Positions 1-13,097 of a DNA stretch of 38,729 bases are shown here, in pieces. Every line of letters begins with the position of its first letter. Position 1 is the first letter of the stretch. The translations under genes were made by a program, and so were the position numbers. The DNA is from Shigella phage ESh10, in sequence record ON528723; one strand, given 5' to 3'. The notes under the pieces were generated by a model that made no database searches, had not been told where the DNA came from, and saw only the letters and a list, made by a program, of their open reading frames with translations.

Positions 1-1789
1 TAACGGTCGCAGACCTTTGGCACTCGTTCGCACTCACTCTAAGAAGGGCTTGATGCGCTATGAGGATGTTTACATGCCAGAAGTTTACAAGGCGGTCAAC
101 ATCGCACAGAACACCGCATGGAAAATCAACAAGAAAGTTCTTGCTGTTGTCAATGAGATTGTTAACTGGAAGAATTGCCCGGTCGCAGACATTCCATCTC
201 TGGAACGCCAAGAGTTACCGCCTAAGCCGGACGACATTGACACCAACGAGGCAGCACTCAAGGAGTGGAAGAAAGCCGCCGCTGGTATCTACCGCTTGGA
301 CAAGGCACGAGTGTCTCGCCGTATCAGCTTAGAGTTCATGCTGGAGCAGGCCAACAAGTTCGCAAACAAGAAAGCAATCTGGTTCCCTTACAACATGGAC
401 TGGCGCGGTCGTGTGTACGCTGTGCCGATGTTCAACCCGCAAGGCAACGACATGACCAAGGGTCTCCTAACCCTCGCTAAGGGAAAGCCAATCGGTGAGG
501 AAGGTTTCTACTGGCTGAAAATCCACGGTGCGAACTGTGCGGGTGTCGATAAGGTTCCATTCCCTGAGCGTATCGCGTTCATTGAGAAGCACGTAGACGA
601 CATTCTGGCTTGCGCTAAAGACCCAATCAATAACACTTGGTGGGCCGAGCAGGATTCACCTTTCTGTTTCCTCGCGTTCTGCTTCGAGTATGCAGGCGTT
701 GCGCACCACGGTCTGAGCTACAATTGCTCTCTGCCGCTGGCGTTCGACGGGTCTTGCTCTGGTATCCAGCACTTCTCCGCGATGCTCCGCGATGAGGTAG
801 GCGGTCGTGCGGTTAACCTGCTGCCAAGCGAAACCGTGCAGGACATTTACGGAATCGTTGCACAGAAAGTAAACGAGATTCTCAAACAGGATGCAATCAA
901 CGGCACACCTAACGAGATGATTACCGTGACCGACAAGGACACCGGGGAAATCTCTGAGAAGCTCAAGCTGGGAACCTCAACGCTGGCGCAACAGTGGCTG
1001 GCATACGGTGTAACCCGTAGCGTAACTAAACGTTCGGTCATGACGCTGGCTTACGGTTCTAAGGAGTTCGGCTTTCGTCAACAGGTACTGGACGACACCA
1101 TTCAGCCTGCGATTGACAGCGGTAAGGGCTTGATGTTCACCCAACCTAACCAAGCGGCTGGCTATATGGCTAAGTTGATTTGGGACGCGGTGAGCGTGAC
1201 CGTAGTCGCAGCGGTTGAGGCGATGAACTGGCTCAAGTCTGCCGCCAAGCTGCTGGCTGCTGAGGTCAAGGACAAGAAGACCAAGGAGATTCTGCGCCAC
1301 CGTTGCGCGGTTCACTGGACTACGCCGGACGGCTTCCCGGTCTGGCAGGAATACCGCAAGCCACTCCAGAAGCGTCTCGATATGATTTTCTTGGGGCAAT
1401 TCCGTCTGCAACCGACGATTAATACCCTCAAGGATTCAGGCATTGACGCACACAAGCAGGAGTCTGGTATCGCTCCTAACTTTGTTCACTCACAGGATGG
1501 TAGCCACCTACGCATGACAGTCGTTTATGCTCACGAGAAGTATGGCATTGAGTCCTTTGCGCTCATCCATGACAGCTTTGGGACTATTCCGGCAGACGCT
1601 GGTAAGCTCTTTAAGGCTGTGCGGGAAACGATGGTTCTCACCTACGAGAACAACGATGTGCTGGCAGACTTCTATGACCAGTTTGCAGACCAGCTACACG
1701 AGACCCAACTGGACAAGATGCCTCCTCTTCCGAAGAAAGGGAACCTGAACCTGCAAGACATTCTCAAGTCTGACTTTGCCTTTGCATAA
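1..1789 (+). CDS. 1: T3-type DNA-directed RNA polymerase, C-terminal ~590 codons (5'-partial in window; continues from 37864..38729 across the window junction)
   Basis: ORF 17..1789 is open back to position 2 in the same frame; translation matches single-subunit T7/T3 RNAP and ends ...DFAFA. Confidence 0.95.
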   Translation, partial: NGRRPLALVRTHSKKGLMRYEDVYMPEVYKAVNIAQNTAWKINKKVLAVVNEIVNWKNCPVADIPSLERQELPPKPDDIDTNEAALKEWKKAAAGIYRLDKARVSRRISLEFMLEQANKFANKKAIWFPYNMDWRGRVYAVPMFNPQGNDMTKGLLTLAKGKPIGEEGFYWLKIHGANCAGVDKVPFPERIAFIEKHVDDILACAKDPINNTWWAEQDSPFCFLAFCFEYAGVAHHGLSYNCSLPLAFDGSCSGIQHFSAMLRDEVGGRAVNLLPSETVQDIYGIVAQKVNEILKQDAINGTPNEMITVTDKDTGEISEKLKLGTSTLAQQWLAYGVTRSVTKRSVMTLAYGSKEFGFRQQVLDDTIQPAIDSGKGLMFTQPNQAAGYMAKLIWDAVSVTVVAAVEAMNWLKSAAKLLAAEVKDKKTKEILRHRCAVHWTTPDGFPVWQEYRKPLQKRLDMIFLGQFRLQPTINTLKDSGIDAHKQESGIAPNFVHSQDGSHLRMTVVYAHEKYGIESFALIHDSFGTIPADAGKLFKAVRETMVLTYENNDVLADFYDQFADQLHETQLDKMPPLPKKGNLNLQDILKSDFAFA

Positions 1790-1801
1790 CAAGCACTTAG
1801 C

Positions 1802-1823
1802 ATTAACCCTCACTAACGGGAGA
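1802..1823 (+). promoter_or_regulatory. T3-type phage RNAP promoter
   Basis: attaaccctcactaacgggaga matches the T3 promoter consensus; immediately downstream of gene 1. Confidence 0.8.
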
Positions 1824-1875
1824 CTACTTAAGGTCTCCCACTTTAAGACACTTTAGGTACTAAGAGATTAAATTT

Positions 1876-2148
1876 ATGATTAACATTAAGACTTTCTTTA
1901 AGAACATCTTTAAGTTAAACCGCTTGACTTCCGTTAAGTTCTACGCTTGGATGCCCGGTAGCGATGACCTCCGCAAGACTGAATTTAAGTTAGGCTTAGG
2001 GCCGTGCGGTAAGGTGGTCACGAAGTTGGAATGCTACTCAATGGCCTCCGGGATGGTCATCTTCCAGACCACTGAGGACAACGAAATGAAATCCTTCTAC
2101 TACCCGAAAGGTTCAACATGTGGTCGTATCGAACGGACATACAGTTAA
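1876..2148 (+). CDS. hypothetical class II protein (gene 1.05-like)
   Basis: 90-aa ORF between two phage promoters, co-oriented; no recognisable domain. Confidence 0.5.
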   Translation: MINIKTFFKNIFKLNRLTSVKFYAWMPGSDDLRKTEFKLGLGPCGKVVTKLECYSMASGMVIFQTTEDNEMKSFYYPKGSTCGRIERTYS

Positions 2149-2166
2149 CCCTCACTAACGGGAGAG
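2145..2166 (+). promoter_or_regulatory. T3-type phage RNAP promoter
   Basis: ttaaccctcactaacgggagag. Confidence 0.8.
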
Positions 2167-2171
2167 TTAAA

Positions 2172-2206
2172 CTTAAGGTCATCACCAGCGGTGGCCTTTG
2201 TGATTA
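2172..2206 (+). promoter_or_regulatory. RNase III-type processing hairpin
   Basis: acttaaggtc...ggcctttgtgatt, same motif family as the other intergenic ctcaaggtc/ggcctttatgat hairpins. Confidence 0.55.
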
Positions 2207-2240
2207 ACTTTCAATACACATCAACATGAGGTAAGATACT

Positions 2241-2381
2241 ATGCGTACCAACTTTGAGAAATTTACCAAGCGCGATTCAGTGGTCAACGAGCATGGCGAA
2301 CAGTGGCAAGAGCGCCATGACCGCATGAAGAAACGCCACAAGCAACAGCGCGGTAACTCACAGAAACGGGAGTGGAACTAA
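2241..2381 (+). CDS. 1.1: gene 1.1-like small basic protein (46 aa)
   Basis: ATG after a gtaagat SD-like sequence; translation MRTNFEKFTKRDSVVNEHGEQWQERHDRMKKRHKQQRGNSQKREWN, basic and similar to T7 gp1.1; below the ORF-track cutoff. Confidence 0.55.
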   Translation: MRTNFEKFTKRDSVVNEHGEQWQERHDRMKKRHKQQRGNSQKREWN

Positions 2382-2659
2382 TGATGATGGGACGTATCTA
2401 TAGCGGCAACCTGAACGATTACAAAGATGCGGTAGAGCGTCTACAGGAAGACCATGACGTGACCGTGAAGATGGAGTCATTCAGCTATGAAAACCCAGCG
2501 AAGATGTGCAGGTCATCCGGTGAGGTTCTCCGTGTGTTCACACGCTCCGGGCATCTGGTGGCATCCAGAACCTTCGAGCACAGCGACAGCGATGTACAAA
2601 TCAACGCGCAGACTGCATGGCTCCGCAAGGTTCACAGCGATTTGAAACACTGGAAGTAA
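2381..2659 (+). CDS. 1.2: gene 1.2 protein (inhibitor of host dGTP triphosphohydrolase)
   Basis: ORF 2372..2659; MGRIYSGNL...DLKHWK resembles T7 gp1.2; start at 2381/2387 preferred over 2372 because of upstream GGAG. Confidence 0.7.
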   Translation: MMMGRIYSGNLNDYKDAVERLQEDHDVTVKMESFSYENPAKMCRSSGEVLRVFTRSGHLVASRTFEHSDSDVQINAQTAWLRKVHSDLKHWK

Positions 2660-2679
2660 TAACCCTCACTAACAGGAGA
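2658..2679 (+). promoter_or_regulatory. T3-type phage RNAP promoter
   Basis: aataaccctcactaacaggaga. Confidence 0.8.
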
Positions 2680-2682
2680 ATC

Positions 2683-2716
2683 CTCAGGGTCACTTTAGCG
2701 AGTGGCCTTTGTGATT
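2683..2716 (+). promoter_or_regulatory. RNase III-type processing hairpin
   Basis: cctcagggtcac...gtggcctttgtgatt. Confidence 0.5.
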
Positions 2717-2753
2717 CGAACTGATTAACTTTCAACCAATGAGGAACAACCTT

Positions 2754-3800
2754 ATGAACATCTTCAATACCAACCCATTCAAAGCTGTGTCATTCGTAGA
2801 GTCTGCCGTTAAGAAAGCGCTGGAGACCTCCGGCTACCTAATGGCTGATATCAAATATGATGGTGTGCGCGGTAACATTGTGGTTGACAACGTGGCTGAG
2901 GCCGCATGGTTGTCTCGCGTATCCAAGTTCATCCCGGCGCTAGAACACCTGAACGGATTCGATAAGCGCTGGCAGCAACTACTGAACGATGACCGCTGCA
3001 TCTTCCCGGATGGCTTCATGCTGGATGGCGAACTGATGGTCAAAGGTGTAGACTTCAACACCGGGTCTGGCCTGCTGCGTACCAAGTGGCTCAAGAAGGA
3101 TAACGCCGAGTTCCATAACGTAATGGTCACACCAGACATGCTCAAGCCACGTAAGGTGGGAGTAGCTAAACGGGTTCGCACCGCCTTTGAGTTGGACACT
3201 AAGCGCCTGAGCGTGCGCCTGTATGCTGTCATGCCGATTCACATTGCGGAGTCTGGCGAGGACTACGATGTACAGAACCTGCTGATGCCGTATCATGTGG
3301 AAGCCATGCGCTCTCTTCTGGTTGAATACTTCCCGGAAATCGAGTGGCTTATCGCTGAGACCTACGAGGTCTACGATATGGATTCGCTGACTGAACTGTA
3401 CGAAGAGAAGCGTGCCGAAGGTCACGAGGGTCTCATTGTGAAAGACCCACAAGGAATCTACAAGCGAGGCAAGAAGTCTGGCTGGTGGAAGCTCAAGCCT
3501 GAGTGTGAAGCTGATGGTATCATTCAGGGTGTCAATTGGGGAACCGAAGGGTTAGCCAACGAGGGTAAAGTGATAGGCTTTAGTGTGCTTCTTGAGACTG
3601 GTCGTTTAGTAGACGCCAACAACATCTCTCGCGCATTGATGGACGAGTTCACAGCCAACGTTAAAGCCCACGGTGAAGACTTCTACAACGGGTGGGCCTG
3701 TCAGGTCAACTATATGGAAGAGACCCCGGACGGCTCCCTGCGTCACCCTAGCTTCGAGAAGTTCCGAGGCACTGAGGACAACCCTCAAGAGAAAATGTAA
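2754..3800 (+). CDS. 1.3: ATP-dependent DNA ligase
   Basis: Translation has the adenylation motif (AD)IKYDGVRG and aligns along its length to T7 ligase; start 2754 (GAGGA 9 nt upstream) preferred over ORF-track start 2739. Confidence 0.9.
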   Translation: MNIFNTNPFKAVSFVESAVKKALETSGYLMADIKYDGVRGNIVVDNVAEAAWLSRVSKFIPALEHLNGFDKRWQQLLNDDRCIFPDGFMLDGELMVKGVDFNTGSGLLRTKWLKKDNAEFHNVMVTPDMLKPRKVGVAKRVRTAFELDTKRLSVRLYAVMPIHIAESGEDYDVQNLLMPYHVEAMRSLLVEYFPEIEWLIAETYEVYDMDSLTELYEEKRAEGHEGLIVKDPQGIYKRGKKSGWWKLKPECEADGIIQGVNWGTEGLANEGKVIGFSVLLETGRLVDANNISRALMDEFTANVKAHGEDFYNGWACQVNYMEETPDGSLRHPSFEKFRGTEDNPQEKM

Positions 3801-3849
3801 CCAACTCACTGGCTCACCTTAACGGGTGGGCCTTTCTTCGTTCAGAGGT

Positions 3850-3871
3850 ATTAACCCTCACTAACAGGAGA
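3850..3871 (+). promoter_or_regulatory. T3-type phage RNAP promoter
   Basis: attaaccctcactaacaggaga. Confidence 0.8.
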
Positions 3872-3879
3872 CACACACC

Positions 3880-3957
3880 ATGTGGCTTATCCTATTCGCT
3901 ATCGTCGCAACTCTGGGATTAATGGTTGCCGACGACAACATTTGGCCTGATTGTTAA
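3880..3957 (+). CDS. very small hydrophobic peptide (25 aa), hypothetical
   Basis: ATG 9 nt after promoter-embedded AGGAG; MWLILFAIVATLGLMVADDNIWPDC; weak. Confidence 0.3.
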   Translation: MWLILFAIVATLGLMVADDNIWPDC

Positions 3958-3969
3958 GGAGACAACATC

Positions 3970-4227
3970 ATGCGTTTACACTTCAACAAATCAAATGGTA
4001 TCTTTTCGGTTCGCCGTGAAGACCGCTCTACAGCAGTGGCCTCTGAGCGCAACGCCAAGCTGCCGCTGATTGGTTCGGTCGTACCATTGTCGCCGCGTGT
4101 TCACCTACTGATCACTCGTGGAGAGTTCATTAAGGCGATGAACAAAGAGCGCACACATCTGGAAGCCGTGGTCACTTACTGGCCTCGCATCCGTCTGTTC
4201 ATTAAGTGGATTAAGGAGGTGCTGTAA
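3970..4227 (+). CDS. 1.6: gene 1.6 protein
   Basis: AAGGAGA SD; 85 aa, resembles T7 gp1.6. Confidence 0.7.
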   Translation: MRLHFNKSNGIFSVRREDRSTAVASERNAKLPLIGSVVPLSPRVHLLITRGEFIKAMNKERTHLEAVVTYWPRIRLFIKWIKEVL

Positions 4228-4706
4228 TGCTACAACATCATTGGAACAAACCAGACTTAGAGGCGCGCTTCCCGGTTAACTCTGCTGTTCGTTATTCGGG
4301 CGATAACCCAGTTCTCAAGGGTCTGACCGGAACAGTGCAGGGCTATTCTCACACTGGTCGAGTCAAGGTTCGCTTCGGTATTCGTGAGGCTGAGGTGCAT
4401 CCATCCGTACTAATCCCGCTACCTAAAGTCGGCCCGAACGTTGAAGCACCGAAGACAGAAGTCAAGTCTGACGTGACCCATCCGAACCACTACATGCTGT
4501 TCGACAACGTGGAAGCCATTGAGGTTATCGCCCGGTCAATGACCGTCGAGGCGTTCCGTGGGTACTGCTTAGGGAACATCCTGAAATACCGCCTGCGTGC
4601 TGGTAAGAAATCCGAACTGGCAACGATGGAGAAAGACCTTAAGAAAGCGGCTTTCTATCAGGAACTGTTTGACAAACATAAGGGGCTGTGTTATGACGCT
4701 TCGTGA
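4227..4706 (+). CDS. 1.7: gene 1.7 protein (nucleotide kinase-like)
   Basis: ATG overlaps the 1.6 stop, AAGGAGG SD; 159 aa; T7 gp1.7-like. Confidence 0.7.
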   Translation: MLQHHWNKPDLEARFPVNSAVRYSGDNPVLKGLTGTVQGYSHTGRVKVRFGIREAEVHPSVLIPLPKVGPNVEAPKTEVKSDVTHPNHYMLFDNVEAIEVIARSMTVEAFRGYCLGNILKYRLRAGKKSELATMEKDLKKAAFYQELFDKHKGLCYDAS

Positions 4707-4830
4707 ATGCTGCGATTGGTGTGCCGCTAAGTGGAACCAAGCTATTGAGGCTGGTGACGAGGCCGCAGCCAACGCCTACCAACAATTGTACGCGCTGTGG
4801 GAGCGGCGCTTTAAGGAGGCCAATAAATGA
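4693..4830 (+). CDS. 1.8: gene 1.8 protein (45 aa)
   Basis: [45 protein letters not shown]; same frame as ORF 4597..4830 but the upstream part overlaps 1.7. Confidence 0.55.
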
Positions 4831-5063
4831 GCCAGTGTAACAACGGGTGCCAGTACGCGAAGGACGTAGGGATGGAGAACCACTCCTGTGCAAATCGCTG
4901 CATGTACTCAGAACAGAAATACCTTCTGACGATAGAAGGCAACACCGAGTCCTTTGAGGTTCCGGTATTCGCCCGGTCTCTCGAAGAGGCAACGCTACAG
5001 GCTGAACATTATGAGGACGCTGGGTTCGTAGTGACTCGCATCCGTCCAGAAGTGAAATCCTAA
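4827..5063 (+). CDS. 2: gene 2 protein, inhibitor of host RNA polymerase
   Basis: AAGGAGG SD; ...[34 protein letters not shown] resembles T7 gp2. Confidence 0.75.
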
Positions 5064-5085
5064 TTACCCTCACTAAAGGGAACAA
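5063..5085 (+). promoter_or_regulatory. T3-type phage RNAP promoter
   Basis: aattaccctcactaaagggaaca. Confidence 0.8.
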
Positions 5086-5115
5086 CCCAATCATTAACCA
5101 CAAAGGAGAAACATT

Positions 5116-5814
5116 ATGGCTGGTTTCAAGAAGAAAATCTACACCTCTGGTCTTGGCACTGCTGAGCCTTACGCTTACCTGAGTAAGCCGGATTACGGCA
5201 ACGAAGAGCGTGGCTTCGGCAACCCTCGTGGTATCTATAAGGTAGACCTGACTCTTTCCAATAAAGACCCGCGCTGTCAGGCAATGGTCGATGAAATCGT
5301 GAAGACTCACGAAGAGGCTTATGCTGCTGCCGTGGAAGAGTTCGAGGCTAACCCGCCGCAGGCACAGCGTGGTAAGAAACCACTGAAACCTTACGAGGGC
5401 GACATGCCGTTCTTCGATAATGGTGACGGTACGACTACCTTCAAGTTCAAATGCTATGCGTCTTTCCAAGACAAGAAGACCAAAGAGACCAAACACATTA
5501 ATCTGGTCGTGGTCGATAGCAAAGGTAAGAAGATTCAGGACGTTCCGATTATCGGCGGCGGCTCTAAGCTGAAAGTGAAATACTCTCTGGTGCCTTACAA
5601 GTGGAACACCGCTGTGGGCGCAAGCGTCAAGCTGCAACTGGAGTCCGTGATGCTGGTCGAACTGGCTACCTTCGGTGGTGGCGGTGAAGATGAGTGGGCC
5701 GATGAAGTCGAAGATTGTGGTTACACTGCGAGTGAATCCCGTCAGTCCCGCGATGAGCAGGAGTGGCAGGAAGACGAGCACGAAGAAACCCCGGATGATG
5801 ACGAGGACTTCTAA
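5116..5814 (+). CDS. 2.5: single-stranded DNA-binding protein
   Basis: 232 aa; T7 gp2.5-like with characteristic acidic C-terminus ...ETPDDDEDF. Confidence 0.92.
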   Translation: MAGFKKKIYTSGLGTAEPYAYLSKPDYGNEERGFGNPRGIYKVDLTLSNKDPRCQAMVDEIVKTHEEAYAAAVEEFEANPPQAQRGKKPLKPYEGDMPFFDNGDGTTTFKFKCYASFQDKKTKETKHINLVVVDSKGKKIQDVPIIGGGSKLKVKYSLVPYKWNTAVGASVKLQLESVMLVELATFGGGGEDEWADEVEDCGYTASESRQSRDEQEWQEDEHEETPDDDEDF

Positions 5815-6275
5815 TGGCTGGCGCATACGCTGCGCGAGGTGTACGCAAGGTCGGAGCATTCCGTTCCGGCCTAGAGGATAAAGTCTCAAAGCAGCTTGAG
5901 AGTAAGGGAATTAAGTTCGACTATGAACTTTGGCGTATCCCTTACGTCATCCCTGCGAGTGACCACTTATACACTCCAGACTTCCTGCTACCTAATGGCA
6001 TCTTCATTGAGACCAAAGGGTTGTGGGATTCCGATGACCGCAAGAAACACCTTTTGATTCGTGAGCAACACCCCGAACTGGACATTCGCTTGGTCTTCTC
6101 AAGCAGCCGCTCAAAGCTCTACAAGGGTAGCCCAACAAGCTACGGTGAGTGGTGCGAGAAGCATGGCATTCTGTTTGCTGACAAGCTGATACCAGTGGCG
6201 TGGCTCAAAGAACCCAAGAAGGAGGTTCCGTTCGATAAATTTAAGACTAAGAAAGGAGTAAAGAAAAATGGCTAA
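5814..6275 (+). CDS. 3: endonuclease I (Holliday junction resolvase)
   Basis: 153 aa; T7 gp3-like (…YTPDFLLPNGIFIETKG…). Confidence 0.9.
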   Translation: MAGAYAARGVRKVGAFRSGLEDKVSKQLESKGIKFDYELWRIPYVIPASDHLYTPDFLLPNGIFIETKGLWDSDDRKKHLLIREQHPELDIRLVFSSSRSKLYKGSPTSYGEWCEKHGILFADKLIPVAWLKEPKKEVPFDKFKTKKGVKKNG

Positions 6276-6723
6276 AGTTCAATTCAAACCACGGGCAACC
6301 ACGGAGGCAATCTTTGTGCATTGCTCAGCAACCAAGCCAAGCCAGAACATTGGCGTTCGTGAGATTCGTCAGTGGCACAAGGAGCAGGGCTGGTTAGACG
6401 TAGGATATCACTTCATCATCAAGCGTGATGGCACTGTGGAAGCAGGCCGCGATGAACTGGCTGTAGGTTCCCACGTGAAAGGTTACAACCACAACTCCGT
6501 AGGCGTATGCCTCGTGGGTGGGATTGATGATAAAGGCAAGTTCGACGCCAACTTTACACCTGCGCAAATGCAAGCGCTGCGTAGTCTGCTGGTCACGCTG
6601 CTGGCGAAGTATGAGGGTTCAATCATTCGTGCTCACCATGACGTTGCACCCAAGGCCTGCCCGTCCTTCGACTTGAAGCGCTGGTGGGAGAAGAACGAAC
6701 TGGTTACATCTGACCGAGGGTGA
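6268..6723 (+). CDS. 3.5: lysozyme / N-acetylmuramoyl-L-alanine amidase (RNAP-inhibitory)
   Basis: 151 aa; T7 lysozyme-like, Zn-ligand context FVHCSAT…HHDVAPKACPSFD. Confidence 0.93.
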   Translation: MAKVQFKPRATTEAIFVHCSATKPSQNIGVREIRQWHKEQGWLDVGYHFIIKRDGTVEAGRDELAVGSHVKGYNHNSVGVCLVGGIDDKGKFDANFTPAQMQALRSLLVTLLAKYEGSIIRAHHDVAPKACPSFDLKRWWEKNELVTSDRG

Positions 6724-6727
6724 TACC

Positions 6728-6833
6728 ATGATGATGATTTGTATTCGCTGTGATAAGCCGTTGAAGAGTCGTGTACCGTCACGTCAGTGCCAGTGCAAAG
6801 ACCCAATCAAGGCGGAGGAACACACCGAGGAAT

Positions 6834-6835
<2 letters not shown>
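6728..6835 (+). CDS. small Cys-rich (zinc-ribbon-like) protein, 35 aa
   Basis: MMMICIRCDKPLKSRVPSRQCQCKDPIKAEEHTEE; CxxC…CxC spacing; sits in the slot between 3.5 and 4. Confidence 0.45.
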
Positions 6836-8650
<1,815 letters not shown>

Positions 8651-8651
<1 letters not shown>

Positions 8652-8673
8652 TTAACCCTCACTAACGGGAACA
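8651..8673 (+). promoter_or_regulatory. T3-type phage RNAP promoter
   Basis: attaaccctcactaacgggaaca. Confidence 0.8.
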
Positions 8674-8697
8674 ACCTCAAACCATAGGAGACACATC

Positions 8698-8910
8698 ATG
8701 TTTAAATTCATTAACGCTTTGGGTAAGCTGGTAGTCAAACTGTACTTCATCGAAGCCAAGAAGCTGGACAAGAAGGCCAAAGCTGATTCACAGCGAGCCA
8801 TTGGGTTGGCGAAACAGTCCCGCGAGAAATCCGATGCGGCTGTCAGTGGCATCCACAAGTCGGCAGCGATTGCAGCCAAAGCACAGTCCATGAGCAAATT
8901 ATTTGAGTAA
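8698..8910 (+). CDS. 4.3: gene 4.3 protein
   Basis: 70 aa, AGGAGA SD, same length and slot as T7 gp4.3. Confidence 0.65.
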   Translation: MFKFINALGKLVVKLYFIEAKKLDKKAKADSQRAIGLAKQSREKSDAAVSGIHKSAAIAAKAQSMSKLFE

Positions 8911-8922
8911 GGAGCGCACACT

Positions 8923-9207
8923 ATGAGCAAGTCAATCACTCACGCAAACACAATCCGTCTGCCAGACACCGCTGACCAGTTCTCCCGCCGAGTACACATC
9001 AATGTGCGTGGCGAGAAGGTAACGATGGTCTACCGCTGGAAAGACCACAAGTCTCCGAAAGCACATACTCAACGCATGACCTTGGATGACAAGCAGGTCG
9101 GTCGCCTGATGGGTGCCCTGACTATGGCTGCTGACAAGGTGGTCGGTGATAATCGTGAGCGTCTGGTAGAGTTCGGCGCTGGTATGCAAGAGATTATCGA
9201 GAAGTGA
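8923..9207 (+). CDS. 4.5: gene 4.5 protein
   Basis: 94 aa, AAGGAG SD. Confidence 0.65.
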   Translation: MSKSITHANTIRLPDTADQFSRRVHINVRGEKVTMVYRWKDHKSPKAHTQRMTLDDKQVGRLMGALTMAADKVVGDNRERLVEFGAGMQEIIEK

Positions 9208-9210
9208 TAA

Positions 9211-9245
9211 ACTCAAGGTCGCCCAAGGGTGGCCTTTATGATTAT
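9211..9245 (+). promoter_or_regulatory. RNase III-type processing hairpin
   Basis: actcaaggtcgcccaagggtggcctttatgatt. Confidence 0.6.
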
Positions 9246-9279
9246 CATTTATCCTGAAATGAAATGAAAGGAGGGCATT

Positions 9280-11394
9280 ATGCTCGTAAGTGACATTGAG
9301 GCCAACAACCTCTTAGAGAAAGTCACCAAGTTTCACTGTGGCGTTATCTATGACTACCGTGATGGTGAGTATCATAGTTATCGTCCGGGCGACTTCGGGG
9401 CGTATCTGGATGCGCTGGAAGCCGAGGTGAAGCGAGGTGGGCTTATTGTTTTCCATAACGGTCACAAGTATGACGTTCCGGCTTTAGAGAAACTCGCAAA
9501 GCTGCAACTCAATCGTGACTTCAAGTTACCGCGTGAGAATTGTATTGACACATTGGTACTCTCGCGTTTACTTCATGCGAACCTTAAAGACACAGACATG
9601 GGGCTTCTTCGTTCCGGGAAACTACCCGGTAGTCGCTTCGGGTCTCACGCTCTGGAGGCATGGGGTTATCGCTTGGGCGAGATGAAAGGTGAATACAAGG
9701 ACGACTTCAAGGCTATGCTGGAAGAGCAGGGCGAAGAATATGTTGATGGTGCTGAGTGGGTTTCATTCAACGAGCCGATGATGGCGTATAACGTTCAAGA
9801 CGTTGTGGTCACTGTTAAGCTCTTAGAGAAATTCCTTACAGACCTCCACTACTTCCCTGCTGGTATGGACTTCACGAAATACGATGCGGATTTATTCTGG
9901 CGTGAAGCTGGCGAGTCTGTGGATATTGAACATCGTGCAGCGTGGCTTTTAGCGAAGCAGGAGCGTAACGGCTTCCCGTTCAACACACAGGCCATTGAGG
10001 AACTTTATGTAGAACTGGCAGCGAAACGCGCCGAACTTCTGAGAAAGCTAACCGAAACGTTTGGCTCATGGTATCAACCGAAAGGTGGTAAGGAGCTCTT
10101 CAAGCACCCACGGACAGGCAAGCCGCTGCCGAGTTATCCGCGCGTGGTCTATCCGAAACAGGGTGGCGTGTACAAGAAGCCTCGTAATAAGGCACAGCGC
10201 GAAGGTCTTGAACCTTGCGACTTGGACACTAGGGATTACATGGAGGGTGCTCCGTATACTCCGGTCGAGTTCGTTACGTTCAAGCCAAGTAGCCGTGACC
10301 ACATTCAGAAGAAACTACAGGAGGCCGGATGGGTTCCTGAGAAGTTCACCGAGAAGGGTGCGCCTGTGGTGGATGATGAGGTCTTGGAGCATGTACGAGT
10401 GGATGACCCTGAGAAGCAGGCGTGCATTGACTTGATTAAAGAGTACCTGATGATTCAGAAGCGAATCGGTCAGGCGGCAGAGGGCGACAAGGCGTGGTTA
10501 CGTTATGTTCAAGATGATGGCAAGATTCATGGAGCCGTTAACCCTAACGGTGCAGTTACTGGTCGTGCTACTCATAGTTTCCCAAACCTTGCACAAGTAC
10601 CCGGCGTTCGTTCTCCTTATGGGGAGCAGTGTCGTAGCGCTTTTGGTGCTGAACATCATTTGGATGGGATTACTGGCAAGCCGTGGGTGCAAGCAGGGAT
10701 AGACGCCAGTGGCTTAGAGTTGCGCTGTCTGGCACACTTCATGGCTCGCTTCGACAACGGAGAGTATGCGAATGAGATTCTCAACGGTGACATTCACACC
10801 AAGAACCAGAACGCTGCGGAACTCCCAACGCGCGACAACGCCAAGACCTTCATTTACGGGTTCCTTTACGGAGCAGGAGATGAGAAGATTGGTCAGATTG
10901 TTGGGGCAGGGAAGGAGCGCGGGAAGGAACTCAAGAAGAAATTCTTAGAGAACACCCCGGCGATTGCAGCGCTACGAGAAGCTATCCAACAGTCTCTCGT
11001 TAAGTCTTCCGCTTGGATTGGTGGTGAGCAGAAAGTCCAGTGGAAACGCCGTTGGATTAAGGGTCTGGATGGTCGCAAGGTTCACGTCAGGTCTCCACAC
11101 GCAGCGCTCAACACATTGTTGCAGTCTGCTGGTGCTCTAATTTGTAAGCTGTGGATTATCAAGACCGAAGAGATGCTCATTGAGAAAGGCTTGAAGCATG
11201 GCTGGGATGGTGACTTTGCGTACATGGCTTGGGTTCACGATGAGATTCAGGTGGCCTGCCGTACAGAGCACATCGCTCAGATTGTTATTGACACCGCGCA
11301 GGAAGCTATGCGTTGGGTAGGAGAGCATTGGGCTTTCCGTTGTCGTTTAGATACCGAAGGTAAGATGGGGCCGAATTGGGCTGTCTGCCACTAA
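9280..11394 (+). CDS. 5: DNA polymerase (family A, with thioredoxin-binding insert)
   Basis: 704 aa; near-identical in blocks to T7 DNAP (…HNGHKYDVPAL…, …DASGLELRCLAHF…, …VHDEIQV…). Confidence 0.96.
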   Translation: MLVSDIEANNLLEKVTKFHCGVIYDYRDGEYHSYRPGDFGAYLDALEAEVKRGGLIVFHNGHKYDVPALEKLAKLQLNRDFKLPRENCIDTLVLSRLLHANLKDTDMGLLRSGKLPGSRFGSHALEAWGYRLGEMKGEYKDDFKAMLEEQGEEYVDGAEWVSFNEPMMAYNVQDVVVTVKLLEKFLTDLHYFPAGMDFTKYDADLFWREAGESVDIEHRAAWLLAKQERNGFPFNTQAIEELYVELAAKRAELLRKLTETFGSWYQPKGGKELFKHPRTGKPLPSYPRVVYPKQGGVYKKPRNKAQREGLEPCDLDTRDYMEGAPYTPVEFVTFKPSSRDHIQKKLQEAGWVPEKFTEKGAPVVDDEVLEHVRVDDPEKQACIDLIKEYLMIQKRIGQAAEGDKAWLRYVQDDGKIHGAVNPNGAVTGRATHSFPNLAQVPGVRSPYGEQCRSAFGAEHHLDGITGKPWVQAGIDASGLELRCLAHFMARFDNGEYANEILNGDIHTKNQNAAELPTRDNAKTFIYGFLYGAGDEKIGQIVGAGKERGKELKKKFLENTPAIAALREAIQQSLVKSSAWIGGEQKVQWKRRWIKGLDGRKVHVRSPHAALNTLLQSAGALICKLWIIKTEEMLIEKGLKHGWDGDFAYMAWVHDEIQVACRTEHIAQIVIDTAQEAMRWVGEHWAFRCRLDTEGKMGPNWAVCH

Positions 11395-11410
11395 CAGTAG
11401 GAGAAACATT

Positions 11411-11707
11411 ATGGGTATGAACAAACAACTCAAAGTAACTTTCAACGTGACCGCAACCATGAGTGATGAGCAGGAGGCGGAGTTCGTGCAGACGCTGAAA
11501 GAGATGGCGAAAAACCAGAAGCGTGGGCCTTACTTCGACAACATTCTGGTAGCTGCTATGACTAATGGGCCGGAGGGTGCCTTTGAGCAGGTGTTGAAAC
11601 AGGGTCTTCGTGAGTTCGTCAAGGAAGAACTTGGCAAAGAGTGTGCTCGTTCAGTCGATGAGTTCATCCTCAAGGTTGCCCCGGCGAAAGTGGAGGTTAT
11701 CCGATGA
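11411..11707 (+). CDS. 5.5: gene 5.5 protein (H-NS-binding in T7)
   Basis: 98 aa, AGGAGA SD. Confidence 0.65.
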   Translation: MGMNKQLKVTFNVTATMSDEQEAEFVQTLKEMAKNQKRGPYFDNILVAAMTNGPEGAFEQVLKQGLREFVKEELGKECARSVDEFILKVAPAKVEVIR

Positions 11708-11913
11708 GTGAATACCTGAAAGTTCTGGCAGCTATCAAAGGTTGCCCTAAGTCCTTTCAGTCGAACTATGTGCGAAACAATGCGGCTCTCGTAGCTGAGG
11801 CCGCTTCTCGTGGACACATTAGCTGTTTGACTGTGGGCGGTCGCAATGGTGGAGCATGGGAGGTAACATCCTCTGGTGTGCGCTTCCTGAAACGAATGGG
11901 AGGTTGCGTATGA
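11704..11913 (+). CDS. 5.7: gene 5.7 protein
   Basis: 69 aa; start overlaps 5.5 stop (ATGA). Confidence 0.65.
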   Translation: MSEYLKVLAAIKGCPKSFQSNYVRNNAALVAEAASRGHISCLTVGGRNGGAWEVTSSGVRFLKRMGGCV

Positions 11914-12092
11914 TTATGCCTAAGAGTGACACCGTAACGATGACCCGTGATGCGTGGAACGATGTTAGCGCGTACATTGATAAGCTGGAGAAAGACCTAG
12001 AGTTCCTGAATGAGCTTAAGGCGTGTGGTGTGGATAATTGGGACGGATACTCTGATGCAGTCGAAATGGTTTACGGGGAGGATGACGAATGA
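11910..12092 (+). CDS. 5.9: gene 5.9 protein (RecBCD inhibitor in T7), 60 aa
   Basis: ATG 11910 after GGGAGG; acidic C-terminal half; ORF-track start 11856 rejected (overlaps 5.7). Confidence 0.55.
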   Translation: MIMPKSDTVTMTRDAWNDVSAYIDKLEKDLEFLNELKACGVDNWDGYSDAVEMVYGEDDE

Positions 12093-13000: not shown

Positions 13001-13095
13001 TTACCATCGCTGTGCTGGTAGGTATGCTGGCGCGAGGTCTCTGGATGTTAGCTCTCATAGTCCGAGACGTGAAGCGAGACTCCGAGATTAAGTGA
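12982..13095 (+). CDS. 6.3: gene 6.3 protein (37 aa, hydrophobic)
   Basis: [37 protein letters not shown]; overlaps end of gene 6. Confidence 0.45.
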
Positions 13096-13097
13096 TA

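What the first reader, a model, noticed from the sequence alone, without database searches (positions are those of the whole stretch)
2241..5063. Cluster of small class II genes matching known T7 host-interference factors
Genes 1.1, 1.2, 1.6, 1.7, 1.8 and 2 are all present. Their T7 counterparts include an inhibitor of host dGTPase (1.2) and the host RNAP inhibitor (2). Further down, 4.5 (8923..9207), 5.5, 5.7 and 5.9 (11411..12092) match proteins T7 uses against Lon, H-NS, sigma-S and RecBCD. Which of these functions are retained in this T3-like genome is a testable question.
Basis: established knowledge. Interest (0 to 1): 0.4.

Follow-up and report, generated by a model that had tools for sequence, protein, structure and literature searches.

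The report
T3-type phage host-takeover gene set
This is the ordinary, already annotated set of small middle genes that a T3-like phage uses to disable host enzymes. Three members differ from the T7 models: the RNA polymerase inhibitor carries an extra four-cysteine piece, and the H-NS and RecBCD counterparts have partly replaced sequences.

Summary
The window is a circularly permuted Teetrevirus genome (T3/phiYeO3-12 type), 96.7% identical to Yersinia phage vB_YenP_AP5. They lie behind T3-type promoters, and each finds its positional T7 counterpart as best match. These genes are annotated in near-identical published genomes, so the finding itself is already known.

Identity to T7 ranges from 32% (1.8) to 86% (5.7). 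Known functional residues are all kept in gp5.7, mostly kept in the gp2 core, and kept in the active-site-plugging N-terminus of gp1.2.

Retention is doubtful for three proteins:
- gp5.5 is a recombining cassette in an allele class of its own, 33% identical to T7.
- gp5.9 keeps only the T7-like N-terminal half. Its C-terminal half is a different conserved motif (GVDNWDGY).
- gp1.7 keeps only the DUF3310 domain.

Unexpectedly, gp2 starts with a 24-residue CX3C-X12-CX3C module. T3 lacks it. It recurs inside DNA ligases, on DUF3310 proteins and in stand-alone small proteins of unrelated phages, and has no Pfam or NCBIfam model.

The parts
2144..2163 (+). T3-type promoter phi1.1
   Evidence: GTTAACCCTCACTAACGGGA, 2 mismatches to the T3 consensus. 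There are 15 matches in the window against 0 expected. Same position as T3 phi1.1.
2162..2212 (+). RNase III-type hairpin (R1.1 equivalent) in the leader of genes 1.1-1.2
   Evidence: MFE -21.1 kcal/mol, z = -2.65. Same position as the annotated T3 R1.1. Cleavage was not tested.
2241..2381 (+). Gene 1.1 (46 aa, basic; function unknown in T7 too)
   Evidence: Pfam Phage_1_1 at 46 bits (cut-off 21). 96% identical to T3 and 45% to T7.
2381..2659 (+). Gene 1.2, dGTPase-inhibitor family (92, 91 or 90 aa depending on which of three ATGs is used)
   Evidence: Pfam T7-like_gp12 at 51.9 bits. PDB 7u65_G E = 5e-11. The motif G-R-I-Y-S-G-N-L directly follows the third ATG. 96% identical to T3 and 41% to T7.
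2658..2677 (+). T3-type promoter phi1.3
   Evidence: 3 mismatches. A hairpin at 2678-2717 has z = -2.46. Matches T3 phi1.3/R1.3.
2739..3800 (+). Gene 1.3, ATP-dependent DNA ligase (inside the reported interval but not a small factor)
   Evidence: 68% identity to T7 ligase over 368 aligned columns, E = 1e-179. It lacks the Cys4 insert that some KP32-like ligases carry between KVKAH and GWACQ (window 3663-3704).
3811..3842 (+). Early terminator TE for host RNA polymerase
   Evidence: A 9-bp GC-rich stem followed by a T run. MFE -18.1 kcal/mol, z = -3.37. Same position as T3 TE.
3850..3869 (+). T3-type promoter phi1.5 (called phi1.6 in AP5)
   Evidence: 2 mismatches. T3 annotation. AP5 promoter table (PMC4283147).
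3880..3957 (+). Gene 1.5 (25 aa)
   Evidence: 100% identical to the annotated T3 gene 1.5 product and 46% to T7 gp1.5. Coding status rests on conservation only.
3970..4227 (+). Gene 1.6 (85 aa; function unknown)
   Evidence: 59% identical to T7 gp1.6 over 83 aa, E = 5e-32. Pfam PF06726 'BC10' at 76.7 bits.
4227..4706 (+). Gene 1.7: C-terminal DUF3310 domain (aa 83-145) shared with the T7 nucleotide kinase, with a T3-type N-terminal region unrelated to T7's
   Evidence: 70% identical to T7 gp1.7 over the last 91 aa only. Pfam DUF3310 at 77.6 bits. Full length matches phrog_4943. No solved relative.
4693..4830 (+). Gene 1.8 (45 aa; function unknown)
   Evidence: phrog_1312 E = 6e-19. 32% identical to T7 gp1.8 over 34 aa. 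No Pfam model.
4827..5063 (+). Gene 2, host RNA polymerase inhibitor, long form (78 aa)
   Evidence: Pfam RNA_pol_inhib at 80.8 bits on aa 30-75. The AF2 core matches T7 Gp2 in the holoenzyme complex, 4lk0_M, with TM 0.84 and rmsd 1.4 A. The Shine-Dalgarno sequence AAGGAGG lies 8 nt upstream of ATG 4827.
4836..4907 (+). Twin CX3C module at the gp2 N-terminus ([24 protein letters not shown])
   Evidence: Absent from T3, L005, L008 and L009 as a clean 72-nt in-frame gap. Also found in ligases, DUF3310 proteins and stand-alone proteins. No Pfam or NCBIfam model. AF2 predicts two short helices at low confidence.
5062..5081 (+). T3-type promoter phi2.5, closing the block
   Evidence: 2 mismatches. 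T3 annotation.
8923..9207 (+). Gene 4.5 (94 aa), Gp4.5 / Lon-inhibitor family
   Evidence: Pfam TA_inhibitor at 100.3 bits. 73% identical to T7 gp4.5 over aa 8-70, with a diverged C-terminal third. 97% identical to T3. No solved relative.
11411..11707 (+). Gene 5.5 (98 aa), Gp5.5 family, rare allele
   Evidence: Pfam Phage_T7_55 at 26.0 bits against a cut-off of 25. phrog_1452 E = 2e-26. 33% identical to T7, 34% to T3 and 97% to AP5. It keeps 12 of 15 family-conserved columns and forms its own class among 7 allele classes.
11455..11691 (+). Replaced body of gene 5.5 (cassette)
   Evidence: Nucleotide homology to L004, L005, L006 and L009 stops at 11454 and resumes at 11692-11693, although the flanks are 93-98% identical.
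11704..11913 (+). Gene 5.7 (69 aa), RNAP/sigma-S inhibitor
   Evidence: 86% identical to T7 gp5.7 over all 69 aa. PDB 5lgm E = 4e-37. F18, Q19, R24, S35, R36, L42, R47, W52, R60 and R64 are all present (read from the sequence against PMC5569994 and 10.1101/262279).
11910..12092 (+). Gene 5.9 (60 aa), acidic Gp5.9-family protein of the phiYeO3-12 type
   Evidence: Pfam Phage_T7_Gp5_9 at 67.4 bits. PDB 8b1r_P aligns only to aa 6-34. pI 4.05, net charge -11. The C-terminal motif LKACGVDNWDGYSDA is invariant in a wider family. AF2 gives helix 13-39, a break at 40-43 and helix 44-55.

Best explanation
The interval is the left part of the class II (middle) gene block of a T3/phiYeO3-12-type podovirus (genus Teetrevirus). 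The further genes 4.5 and 5.5-5.9 belong to the same block.

Expression (inferred from T3 and T7): once the phage RNA polymerase is made, it transcribes the block from promoters phi1.1, phi1.3, phi1.5 and phi2.5. The transcripts are probably trimmed at RNase III hairpins. Host-polymerase read-through stops at TE after the ligase gene.

Action (inferred by homology): the small products bind host proteins one-to-one and block them. My estimates of retention for this phage are:
- gp2 (about 0.9): clamps onto the beta-prime jaw of host RNA polymerase through R71/R73 and blocks open-complex formation.
- gp5.7 (about 0.9): binds sigma-S region 4 and promoter DNA to silence the remaining host polymerase.
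- gp1.2 (about 0.8): inserts its N-terminus (G-R-I-Y-S-G) into the dGTPase active site.
- gp4.5 (about 0.6): inhibits Lon.
- gp1.7 (about 0.6): supplies dTDP/dGDP through its DUF3310 domain.
- gp5.9 (about 0.5 for RecBCD specifically): an acidic DNA mimic protecting linear phage DNA ends.
- gp5.5 (about 0.4): binds H-NS and/or tRNA.

gp1.1, gp1.5, gp1.6 and gp1.8 have no known function in any phage.

The set is mosaic. The gene 5.5 body, the gp5.9 C-terminal half, the gp1.7 N-terminal region and a 24-residue four-cysteine module at the start of gp2 are exchangeable pieces that differ even between near-identical phages.
For: Identity of the element:
- 96.7% nucleotide identity to Yersinia phage vB_YenP_AP5 over 25 kb, and 97.6% to Klebsiella phage mtp8 over the interval.
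- Same gene order as the annotated T3 and AP5.
- Fifteen T3-type promoters against 0 expected.
- TE and RNase III-type hairpins at the T3 positions.

Homology of each factor.

Functional residues, read from the alignments against the cited papers:
- gp1.2 keeps G2, R3, Y5, S6, G7, K13 and V65. L4 becomes I and F12 becomes Y, both conservative. A10 becomes N and Y28 becomes M (contacts from PMC9478638). All 22 gp1.2 homologues in 80 related loci begin M-G-R-[L/I]-Y-S-G.
- gp2 keeps L36, T55, R56 and R58. V57 becomes I and L40 becomes T. Four of the seven residues of the acidic strip are kept (PMC3778932). The core model superposes on T7 Gp2 bound to E. coli holoenzyme with TM 0.84 and rmsd 1.4 A.
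- gp5.7 keeps all ten residues implicated by mutagenesis, NMR or modelling.
- gp5.9 keeps D4, D11, D15, D21 and E24 and is more acidic than T7 gp5.9, net -11 against -8 (PMC9836394).

Mosaicism.
Against: - No function was tested here, and the host of this phage is unknown.
- gp5.5 passes Pfam by only 1 bit, is 33% identical to T7, and differs at 3 of 15 family-conserved columns.
- In gp5.9 the T7 residues that contact the RecB arm (E36, D38/E39, E45) fall in a region that is not alignable. The model breaks the helix at G40-N43 instead of forming one long coiled-coil helix. Foldseek did not recover 8b1r.
- In gp2, three of the seven acidic-strip residues needed for full inhibition are lost: E34 to R, E41 to L and E53 to V.
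- In gp1.7 the whole N-terminal region differs from T7's, and the location of the kinase site is not known to me.
- For gp1.2, the Shine-Dalgarno spacing (8 nt) and the TAATG overlap favour the first of three ATGs. That would leave extra Met residues ahead of the Gly whose free amino group contacts dGTP in the T7 complex.
- T3 gp1.2 is reported to prevent F exclusion rather than provoke it (PMC3276506), so the family is not functionally uniform.
Confidence: 0.85

Rival explanations
1. The diverged members, above all gp5.5 and gp5.9 and perhaps gp1.7 and the distal half of gp1.2, have been retargeted. They keep a family scaffold but now bind other host or defence proteins. The T7-derived labels (H-NS, RecBCD) would then be wrong for this phage.
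For: - Gene 5.5 behaves as a swapped cassette. Median pairwise identity is 40-52% within each lineage while the flanking genes gp5 and gp5.7 are 97-99%. There are seven allele classes, and the window's class holds only itself and AP5.
- The invariant core of the window-type gp5.9 family is the C-terminal GVDNWDGYSDA motif, which T7 gp5.9 lacks. Distant members share only that motif.
- T7 gp5.9 itself has a second target, MukBEF, and is species-specific (PMC7617805).
- T3 and T7 gp1.2 differ in their F-exclusion behaviour (PMC3276506).
Against: - The targets (H-NS, RecBCD, Dgt) are conserved across the Enterobacterales hosts of the relatives (host list).
- The N-terminal half of gp5.9, including five T7 contact residues, is conserved, and the protein is strongly acidic.
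- Distant GVDNWDGY proteins sit in replication modules beside exonuclease, ligase and polymerase genes. That fits a DNA-end or nuclease-related role.
- Allele diversity can also reflect escape from defence systems that sense these proteins, without a change of target.
Confidence: 0.3
2. The N-terminal cysteine-rich extension of gp2 is an annotation artefact. Translation really starts at an internal Met (M26, window 4902) and gives a T3-like short Gp2, so the upstream codons are not part of the protein.
For: T3 and several close relatives make do with a 53-54 aa Gp2. An in-frame ATG precedes the core at window 4902.
Against: - A canonical AAGGAGG lies 8 nt upstream of ATG 4827, and there is none before 4902.
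- The 24 residues are conserved at protein level in gp2 proteins down to 66% overall identity.
- They recur, in frame, inside ligases and at the start of DUF3310 proteins with invariant C, G, C, Q, D, G, M, H, S, C, C and Y in the seven-sequence alignment; C4, C8, K12, D13, C21, C25 and Y27 stay invariant across twenty contexts.
- The short forms look like deletions that keep a vestigial Cys, Arg or His codon.
Confidence: 0.07
3. Some of the smallest ORFs (1.1, 1.5, 1.8) are not genes. They would be positional open frames preserved by the high overall nucleotide identity among these phages.
For: They are 25-46 codons long. No function is known for their T7 counterparts. 1.5 has no family model. 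Identity to T7 is low (32-46%).
Against: - 1.1 and 1.8 match protein family profiles built from diverse phages: Pfam 46 bits for 1.1, and PHROG E-values of 2e-22 and 6e-19.
- Open frames persist in the T7 group at 32-45% protein identity, too diverged for passive preservation.
- The overlaps ATGA (1.8/2) and TAATG (1.1/1.2) indicate translational coupling.
Confidence: 0.1

Closest known systems
Yersinia phages vB_YenP_AP5 (NC_025451) and phiYeO3-12 (AJ251805), genus Teetrevirus
   Same: AP5 is 96.7% identical in nucleotides over 25 kb. It has the same gene order, the same long gp2 with the Cys4 module (phiYeO3-12 is 100% identical over the 30-aa query), the same rare gp5.5 allele (97%) and the same gp5.9 type (97%). 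It has the same T3-type promoters (PMC4283147).
   Different: Only point differences. AP5 has two rather than three ATGs before the gp1.2 Gly. In the AP5 paper gp5.5 is listed as a hypothetical protein with KP32 as its best match (58%), and neither the gp2 module nor the gp5.9 motif is discussed.
Enterobacteria phage T3 (NC_003298)
   Same: Genes 1.05-4.5 are 84-100% identical in protein, apart from the gp2 indel. Promoters, RNase III sites, TE and gene order are the same. gp1.2 is 96% identical.
   Different: - T3 gp2 is 54 aa and lacks the 24-residue module.
- T3 gp5, gp5.7, gp5.9 and gp6 are 92-99% T7-like (gp5.5 only 51%), whereas the window's gp5.5 and gp5.9 are 34% and 40% identical to T3's.
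- T3 has an HNH gene 5.3, which the window lacks.
Enterobacteria phage T7 (NC_001604), the experimental reference for all the factors
   Same: Every factor is collinear and homologous. Solved T7 structures align to gp1.2 (7u65), gp2 (2wnm, 4lk0), gp5.7 (5lgm) and the N-terminal half of gp5.9 (8b1r, 9gmb).
   Different: - Protein identity is 32-86%.
- T7 has genes 1.4, 2.8, 3.8, 4.7 and 5.3, for which the window has no room between adjacent genes.
- The T7 gp1.7 N-terminal region is different.
- T7 gp2 has no Cys4 module.
- T7 gp5.9 is a continuous coiled coil without the GVDNWDGY motif.
- T7 promoters differ in specificity.
- T7 encodes Ocr where this phage encodes a SAM lyase.
Twin CX3C helix-loop-helix motif of the small Tim proteins (resemblance recalled from memory, for the gp2 module only)
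   Same: Two CX3C pairs are separated by 12 residues. AF2 predicts two short helices that each carry one pair.
   Different: No sequence homology was sought or found. The module is 24 aa, cytoplasmic and phage-encoded. It also has a strongly conserved [10 protein letters not shown] core between the cysteine pairs. Metal binding or disulfide formation is untested.

Membership tests
Teetrevirus (T3-like) class II gene block | Collinear gene order 1.05-1.1-1.2-1.3-1.5-1.6-1.7-1.8-2-2.5 ... 4.3-4.5-5-5.5-5.7-5.9-6, with high nucleotide identity to type members | tested here: met
   96.7% identity to AP5, and 84-100% protein identity to T3 for genes 1.05-4.5.
Teetrevirus (T3-like) class II gene block | T3-specificity phage promoters ahead of the gene groups | tested here: met
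   Fifteen matches to ATTAACCCTCACTAAAGGGA at up to 3 mismatches, against 0 expected. They lie at the T3 and AP5 positions (PMC4283147).
Gp1.2 dGTPase inhibitor (PF10922) | Full-length match to the family profile and to the solved T7 protein | tested here: met
   51.9 bits against a cut-off of 22. 7u65_G E = 5e-11 over aa 2-92.
Gp1.2 dGTPase inhibitor (PF10922) | N-terminal G2-R3-L4-Y5-S6-G7 segment that enters the Dgt active site, plus contacts F12, K13, Y28 and V65 | tested here: met
   The window has G-R-I-Y-S-G with Y12, K13 and V65. A10 becomes N and Y28 becomes M.
Gp1.2 dGTPase inhibitor (PF10922) | Mature protein begins at Gly2, whose free alpha-amino group contacts the dGTP phosphates | tested here: inconclusive
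   Three ATGs precede the Gly. Conservation points to the third. The Shine-Dalgarno spacing and the TAATG coupling point to the first.
Gp1.2 dGTPase inhibitor (PF10922) | Inhibits host dGTPase; required on dGTPase-overproducing (optA1) hosts | not testable with these tools
   Needs biochemistry or genetics.
Gp2 host RNA polymerase inhibitor (PF16857) | Beta-beta-alpha-beta fold of T7 Gp2 | tested here: met
   The AF2 core has pLDDT 85-88. Foldseek against 4lk0_M gives TM 0.84 and rmsd 1.4 A. Pfam scores 80.8 bits.
Gp2 host RNA polymerase inhibitor (PF16857) | Invariant R56 and R58 and the hydrophobic jaw contacts L36, L40 and V57 | tested here: met
   R71, R73 and L52 are present and V57 is replaced by I72. 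L40 is replaced by T56 (alignment; PMC3778932).
Gp2 host RNA polymerase inhibitor (PF16857) | Contiguous strip of seven acidic residues (E21, E34, D37, E38, E41, E44, E53) needed for full inhibition | tested here: inconclusive
   Four of seven are kept. E34 becomes R, E41 becomes L and E53 becomes V. Other acidic residues lie nearby (E41, E44, E63 and D64 in window numbering). T3 gp2 shares this pattern.
Gp5.7 RNAP/sigma-S inhibitor | Winged-helix protein with functional residues F18, Q19, R24, S35, L42 and W52 and DNA-facing R36, R47, R60 and R64 | tested here: met
   86% identity. 5lgm E = 4e-37. All ten residues are present.
Gp5.9 RecBCD inhibitor (PF25708) | Profile match and small, highly acidic protein (DNA mimic) | tested here: met
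   67.4 bits against a cut-off of 24.5. pI 4.05, net charge -11.
Gp5.9 RecBCD inhibitor (PF25708) | N-terminal strand and first helix turns carrying D4, D11, D15, D21 and E24 | tested here: met
   All five are conserved in the alignment to 8b1r_P (PMC9836394; PMC7617805).
Gp5.9 RecBCD inhibitor (PF25708) | Long uninterrupted coiled-coil helix whose C-terminal end (E36, D38/E39, E45) binds the RecB arm | tested here: not met
   The C-terminal half is not alignable to T7. AF2 breaks the helix at G40-N43. This is a monomer model of a protein that is a dimer in T7, so the caveat is large.
Gp4.5 Lon / toxin-antitoxin inhibitor (PF17574) | Profile match | tested here: met
   100.3 bits against a cut-off of 27. 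73% identical to T7 over aa 8-70.
Gp4.5 Lon / toxin-antitoxin inhibitor (PF17574) | Binds and inhibits Lon | not testable with these tools
   No structure or mapped interface is available.
Gp5.5 H-NS/tRNA-binding protein (PF11247) | Profile match and family-conserved columns | tested here: met
   Only marginally met. Pfam scores 26.0 bits against a cut-off of 25. PHROG E = 2e-26. Twelve of 15 conserved columns are kept.
Gp5.5 H-NS/tRNA-binding protein (PF11247) | Binds the H-NS central oligomerisation domain | not testable with these tools
   No structure is available, and I know of no mapped residues on the gp5.5 side.
Gp1.7 nucleotide kinase | C-terminal DUF3310 domain | tested here: met
   77.6 bits. 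70% identical to T7 over 91 aa.
Gp1.7 nucleotide kinase | T7-type cysteine-rich N-terminal region | tested here: not met
   The N-terminal ~65 aa do not align to T7. They are of the T3 type (phrog_4943).
Twin CX3C mini-module (no curated family) | C-x3-C-x12-C-x3-C with the conserved core GCQY[AS]KDVGM..HSC...C.Y | tested here: met
   Window aa 4-27 of gp2. C4, C8, K12, D13, C21, C25 and Y27 are invariant across 20 sequences from different protein contexts.
Twin CX3C mini-module (no curated family) | Folds autonomously and binds a metal | not testable with these tools
   AF2 gives two helices at pLDDT 50-59 only.

The most novel reading that the evidence does not exclude
The 24-residue CX3C-X12-CX3C segment at the start of this phage's RNA polymerase inhibitor may be an undescribed portable mini-domain, probably metal-binding, which phages graft in frame onto unrelated early and middle proteins.

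Where it occurs:
- Gp2 in Teetrevirus, in Kayfunavirus and in Enterobacter phages whose genus I did not check.
- A loop of the DNA ligase OB domain in K11/KP32-like Klebsiella phages.
- The N-terminus of DUF3310 'nucleotide kinase' proteins in Erwinia and Pantoea phages.
- Stand-alone 47-300 aa proteins in T4-like and other phage contigs.

Its non-cysteine core ([10 protein letters not shown]) is more conserved than a simple structural staple would need. This suggests that it docks all these proteins onto one common host or phage partner.

In the same spirit, the GVDNWDGY motif of the window-type gp5.9 may define an anti-nuclease or DNA-mimic family distinct from T7 gp5.9.
Probability: 0.4. 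Interest if true: 0.55.

Novelty: already known. Interest (0 to 1): 0.27.

Why it matters
As reported, the finding adds nothing new. The same genes are annotated in published genomes that are 96-97% identical.

It is useful in two ways. First, it gives a graded, residue-level forecast of which T7 paradigms can be carried over to the many T3-like Klebsiella, Yersinia, Serratia and Enterobacter phages now considered for therapy:
- Safe: gp2, gp5.7 and gp1.2.
- Unsafe: gp5.5, gp5.9 and the gp1.7 N-terminal region.

Second, it gives three concrete leads:
- a portable four-cysteine module with no family model;
- a hypervariable gene 5.5 cassette, which marks an arms-race hotspot;
- a gp5.9 subtype whose conserved core is not the part of T7 gp5.9 seen contacting the RecB arm.

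Tried and rejected
- Rfam scan of window 1-13200 at gathering thresholds found nothing. The RNase III-type hairpins are therefore supported only by folding and by position.
- Foldseek of the gp5.9 model against the PDB gave no significant match, not even 8b1r. This is uninformative for a 60-residue helical monomer model.
I replaced it with a 33-aa phmmer search of 1.84 billion representatives and a padded 44-aa profile. The latter returned only short proteins, so the count of contexts is a lower bound.
- Pfam and NCBIfam scans of module-bearing proteins gave only noise.
- A full-text search for the strings [26 protein letters not shown] and GVDNWDGY found no paper. That is weak evidence of absence.
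- The JBC paper on the gp1.7 kinase is not held, so I could not map a kinase site.
- I considered the gp2 module as an intein or mobile DNA element and rejected that. It is far too short, has no intein motifs, and is conserved at protein level (55-65% identity) across different host genes rather than at DNA level. It occurs once in the window.
- I first concluded that gene 1.2 must start at the third ATG. I withdrew this to 'unresolved' after reading the Shine-Dalgarno spacing.
- The 416-codon antisense ORF at 4639-5889 lies opposite conserved genes. I treated it as spurious.

Full report
**What the window is**

Megablast of the reported interval and of the first 25 kb finds hundreds of Autographiviridae genomes. 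The best matches are Klebsiella phage mtp8 (97.6% over 2241-5063) and Yersinia phage vB_YenP_AP5 (96.7% over 25 kb), genus Teetrevirus.

The window is a circular permutation of a complete genome. It starts inside gene 1 (RNA polymerase). The early genes sit at its far end:
- gene 0.3, an S-adenosylmethionine lyase, at 35257-35715 (Pfam 136.8 bits);
- gene 0.7, the protein kinase, at 36684-37793 (88% identical to AP5).

**Checking the observation**

Each product's best hit among 27 T7 class II proteins is its positional counterpart, and non-cognate hits have E > 0.01. Eight of the ten pass the gathering score of the corresponding Pfam family:

| Product | Pfam family | Score (bits) | Cut-off (bits) |
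|---|---|---|---|
| gp1.1 | Phage_1_1 | 46 | 21 |
| gp1.2 | T7-like_gp12 | 51.9 | 22 |
| gp1.6 | BC10 | 76.7 | 27 |
| gp1.7 | DUF3310 | 77.6 | 24 |
| gp2 | RNA_pol_inhib | 80.8 | 27 |
| gp4.5 | TA_inhibitor | 100.3 | 27 |
| gp5.5 | Phage_T7_55 | 26.0 | 25 |
| gp5.9 | Phage_T7_Gp5_9 | 67.4 | 24.5 |

Genes 1.8 and 5.7 have no Pfam model but match PHROGs at 6e-19 and 5e-39.

Two coordinate refinements:
- Gene 5.9 most plausibly starts at 11910 (60 aa, an ATGA overlap with the 5.7 stop, as annotated in AP5), not at 11856.
- Gene 1.2 has three consecutive ATGs at 2381, 2384 and 2387.

The interval also contains the ligase gene 1.3 (2739-3800), gene 1.5 (3880-3957) and regulatory sites.

**Anatomy**

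The T3 promoter consensus occurs 15 times in the window against none expected. Sites lie at 1802, 2144, 2658, 3850, 5062, 6835, 8651 and 13115, at the positions of T3 phi1.05, phi1.1, phi1.3, phi1.5, phi2.5, phi3.8, phi4.3 and phi6.5.

- A GC-rich hairpin with a T run at 3811-3842 corresponds to the early terminator TE.
- Hairpins at 2162-2212, 2678-2717 and 9205-9247 fold better than shuffles (z = -2.65, -2.46 and -1.70). They lie where T3 has RNase III sites R1.1, R1.3 and R4.7.
- Rfam has nothing here.

**Similarity to T7 and T3**

| Product | Identity to T7 |
|---|---|
| gp1.1 | 45% |
| gp1.2 | 41% |
| gp1.6 | 58% |
| gp1.7 | 50% overall; 70% over the last 91 residues, with the N-terminal region unrelated |
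| gp1.8 | 32% |
| gp2 | 42% overall; 50% over the 46-residue core |
| gp4.5 | 56% overall; 73% over residues 8-70 |
| gp5.5 | 33% |
| gp5.7 | 86% |
| gp5.9 | 40%; only the N-terminal half aligns |

For comparison, the replication proteins gp2.5, gp3, gp3.5 and gp5 are 85-91% identical to T7.

Against T3, genes 1.05 to 4.5 are 84-100% identical. T3 is 92-99% T7-like in genes 5, 5.7, 5.9 and 6, though only 51% in 5.5. The window's gp5.5 and gp5.9 therefore resemble neither T3 nor T7 (33-40%). They do match AP5 (97%).

**gp1.2**

In the T7 complex, the inhibitor's N-terminus (starting at G2) enters the dGTPase active site. The free amino group and R3 displace the triphosphate. Y5, S6, G7, A10, F12, K13, Y28 and V65 make the interface (PMC9478638).

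The window protein reads G-R-I-Y-S-G-N-L-N-D-Y-K. Thus G2, R3, Y5, S6, G7, K13 and V65 are kept, and L4 to I and F12 to Y are conservative changes. A10 becomes N and Y28 becomes M. All 22 homologues in 80 related loci begin M-G-R-[L/I]-Y-S-G, while the number of preceding Met codons varies from one to three.

The start codon is unresolved. Conservation and mechanism point to the third ATG. The GGGAG at 2368-2372 is 8 nt from the first ATG, which also overlaps the gene 1.1 stop as TAATG.

T3 gp1.2, 96% identical to this one, is reported to prevent F exclusion, whereas T7 gp1.2 elicits it (PMC3276506). From memory and not verified here, gene 1.2 of T3 is also needed on optA1 hosts (Schmitt et al. 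1987).

**gp2**

The C-terminal 50 residues are a bona fide Gp2.
- The AF2 model (pLDDT 85-88) superposes on T7 Gp2 bound to E. coli holoenzyme (4lk0_M, TM 0.84, rmsd 1.4 A).
- The invariant R56 and R58 are present as R71 and R73, with L36, T55 and V57 (as I).
- L40 is Thr.
- Of the seven acidic-strip residues needed for full inhibition, four are kept and three are lost: E34 to R, E41 to L and E53 to V (PMC3778932). T3 shares this pattern.

**The gp2 N-terminal module**

The N-terminus carries an extra 24 residues, [24 protein letters not shown], with the spacing C-x3-C-x12-C-x3-C. A strong AAGGAGG lies 8 nt before ATG 4827, and no ribosome-binding site precedes the internal Met.

Its presence varies among close relatives.
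- AP5, phiYeO3-12, L004 and L006 have the module.
- T3, L005, L008 and L009 lack exactly 72 nt.
- Short forms read M/V-E-Q-[C/R/H]-E-Q-K-Y. They keep what looks like a vestigial first-cysteine codon, which suggests loss rather than gain.

The module recurs in other proteins.
- tblastn finds it in 119 phage records.
- Most hits are at the gp2 N-terminus: Teetrevirus, Kayfunavirus ST37 and Enterobacter phages.
- It also occurs as an insert in the ligase OB domain of K11/KP32-like Klebsiella phages, in 8 of 51 such loci here.
- It occurs at the N-terminus of DUF3310 proteins of Erwinia phages Zoomie and Micant and of Pantoea phage LIMElight.
- A phmmer search of 1.84 billion representatives adds stand-alone or embedded copies in 47-307 aa proteins. 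Two of these sit in arrays of small genes of a T4-like contig and of a contig with a UDG-PolA fusion.

C4, C8, K12, D13, C21, C25 and Y27 are invariant across twenty contexts. No Pfam or NCBIfam model matches. AF2 predicts two short helices that each carry one CX3C pair, at low confidence. The arrangement recalls the twin CX3C motif of the small Tim proteins. That comparison is from memory only.

**gp1.7**

Only the DUF3310 domain is shared with the T7 nucleotide kinase. The N-terminal 65 residues are of the T3 type (phrog_4943). Across phages, this domain is combined with different N-terminal pieces, including the Cys4 module. No solved structure exists.

T7 gp1.7 is also reported as an activator of the Avs5 defence protein (PMC11897194).

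**gp4.5**

The first two thirds are well conserved. Lon inhibition by T7 gp4.5 is documented (PMC11323111, PMC11482910), but no interface is mapped and no structure is solved.

**gp5.5**

Nucleotide homology to four near-identical relatives stops at 11454 and resumes at 11692-11693. The gene body is therefore a cassette exchanged between the conserved first 14 and last 5 codons.

Across 80 loci, gp5.5 has a median pairwise identity of only 40-52% within each lineage. The neighbouring gp5 and gp5.7 are 97-99%. Single-linkage clustering at 60% gives seven allele classes, and the window and AP5 form one of their own. Relatives L004-L006 carry a T7-type allele.

The window keeps 12 of 15 family-conserved columns. 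T7 gp5.5 binds the H-NS oligomerisation domain and tRNA (PMC8501957). Whether this allele does the same cannot be judged.

**gp5.7**

This protein is 86% identical to T7. All residues identified by alanine scanning (F18, Q19, R24, S35, L42, W52) and by DNA titration or modelling (R36, R47, R60, R64) are kept. It is the most conserved small factor across all three lineages (86-87% between lineages).

**gp5.9**

T7 gp5.9 is a parallel coiled-coil dimer and DNA mimic. Its C-terminal end (E36, D38/E39, E45) binds the RecB arm, and its N-terminus (D4) sits near the core (PMC9836394). It also blocks MukE through D11, D15, D21, E24, E36, D38, E43 and E45 (PMC7617805).

What the window protein keeps and what differs:
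- It keeps D4, D11, W13, N14, D15, Y19, I20, D21, L23 and E24.
- From residue 31 onward it reads [29 protein letters not shown].
- This motif is nearly invariant in a wider family whose distant members have unrelated N-termini.
- Those distant members lie beside polymerase, exonuclease, ligase and dUTPase genes in 53-kb phage contigs.
- AF2 predicts helix 13-39, a break at G40-N43 and helix 44-55.
- The protein is very acidic (pI 4.05, net charge -11).

I read it as a DNA-mimic relative whose specificity-determining half differs from T7's.

**Verdict**

The observation and the interpretation are right, and the feature is ordinary and already annotated in close relatives.

My forecast is:
- High-confidence retention for gp2, gp5.7 and gp1.2.
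- Medium confidence for gp4.5 and gp1.7.
- Open for gp5.9 and gp5.5.

The unplanned results are the portable twin-CX3C module, the gene 5.5 cassette and the GVDNWDGY subtype of gp5.9. They are modest but concrete leads.

Noticed in passing
window 4836-4907 (gp2 aa 4-27); also L027, L041, L043, L047, L061, L063, L064 and L082 (ligase), L084-L086 (DUF3310 proteins), L087 (gp2), L088-L089 (stand-alone proteins): A 24-residue CX3C-X12-CX3C module with the conserved core GCQY[AS]KDVGM..HSC occurs in frame in at least three different class II proteins of Autographiviridae and in small proteins of unrelated phages. It is present or absent among near-identical relatives. It has no Pfam or NCBIfam model.
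   Followed up: yes
window 11455-11691 (body of gene 5.5): Gene 5.5 is a hypervariable cassette. There are seven allele classes at 60% identity among 49 distinct sequences. Alleles are exchanged between genera while the flanking genes gp5 and gp5.7 stay 97-99% identical within lineages. The window's allele is shared only with AP5.
   Followed up: yes
window 12000-12092 (gp5.9 aa 31-60): The C-terminal motif FLNxLKACGVDNWDGYSDA followed by an acidic tail is the invariant core of a family that includes proteins with N-termini unrelated to T7 gp5.9, found in 53-kb phage contigs next to PolA, exonuclease, ligase and dUTPase genes. T7 and T3 gp5.9 lack it.
   Followed up: partly
window 2379-2392 (TAATGATGATGGGA): Three tandem ATG codons precede the conserved Gly of gp1.2. 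Relatives have one, two or three. Which one is used decides whether the mature N-terminus can work as in the T7 gp1.2-dGTPase complex.
   Followed up: partly
window 2680-2753; L004 7256-7672: Close relatives L004 and L009 carry an extra stretch of about 420 nt between gene 1.2 and the ligase gene. In L004 it encodes a 138-aa HNH-type endonuclease, and I did not examine the L009 ORF. The window lacks it. It also has no room for T7 genes 2.8, 3.8, 4.7 or 5.3.
   Followed up: partly
window 1876-2148 (gene 1.05): The T3-specific gene 1.05 (Pfam Phage_T3_1_05, 93 bits) is 97% identical to T3. In the otherwise near-identical L008 and L009 it is replaced by a 36%-identical version (homology break at 1880-2146).
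   Followed up: no
window 35257-35715 and 36684-37793: The window is circularly permuted.
   Followed up: partly
window 3970-4227 (gene 1.6): gp1.6 scores 76.7 bits on Pfam PF06726 'Bladder cancer-related protein BC10', and RefSeq names it a 'BC10 family protein'. The label says nothing about its function in a phage. I did not examine why a phage protein falls in that family.
   Followed up: no
gp1.2 across loci L010, L024 and L083 compared with L001 and L012-L023: gp1.2 has at least two allele types: a T7 type of 85 aa and a T3 type of 90 aa. The T3 type also occurs, at 59-60% identity to the window, in phages of the T7 lineage. Most KP32-like loci have no detectable gp1.2.
   Followed up: partly
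window 4639-5889, minus strand: A 416-codon antisense ORF lies opposite genes 1.7-3. I treated it as spurious because the + strand genes are conserved and it has no support.
   Followed up: no
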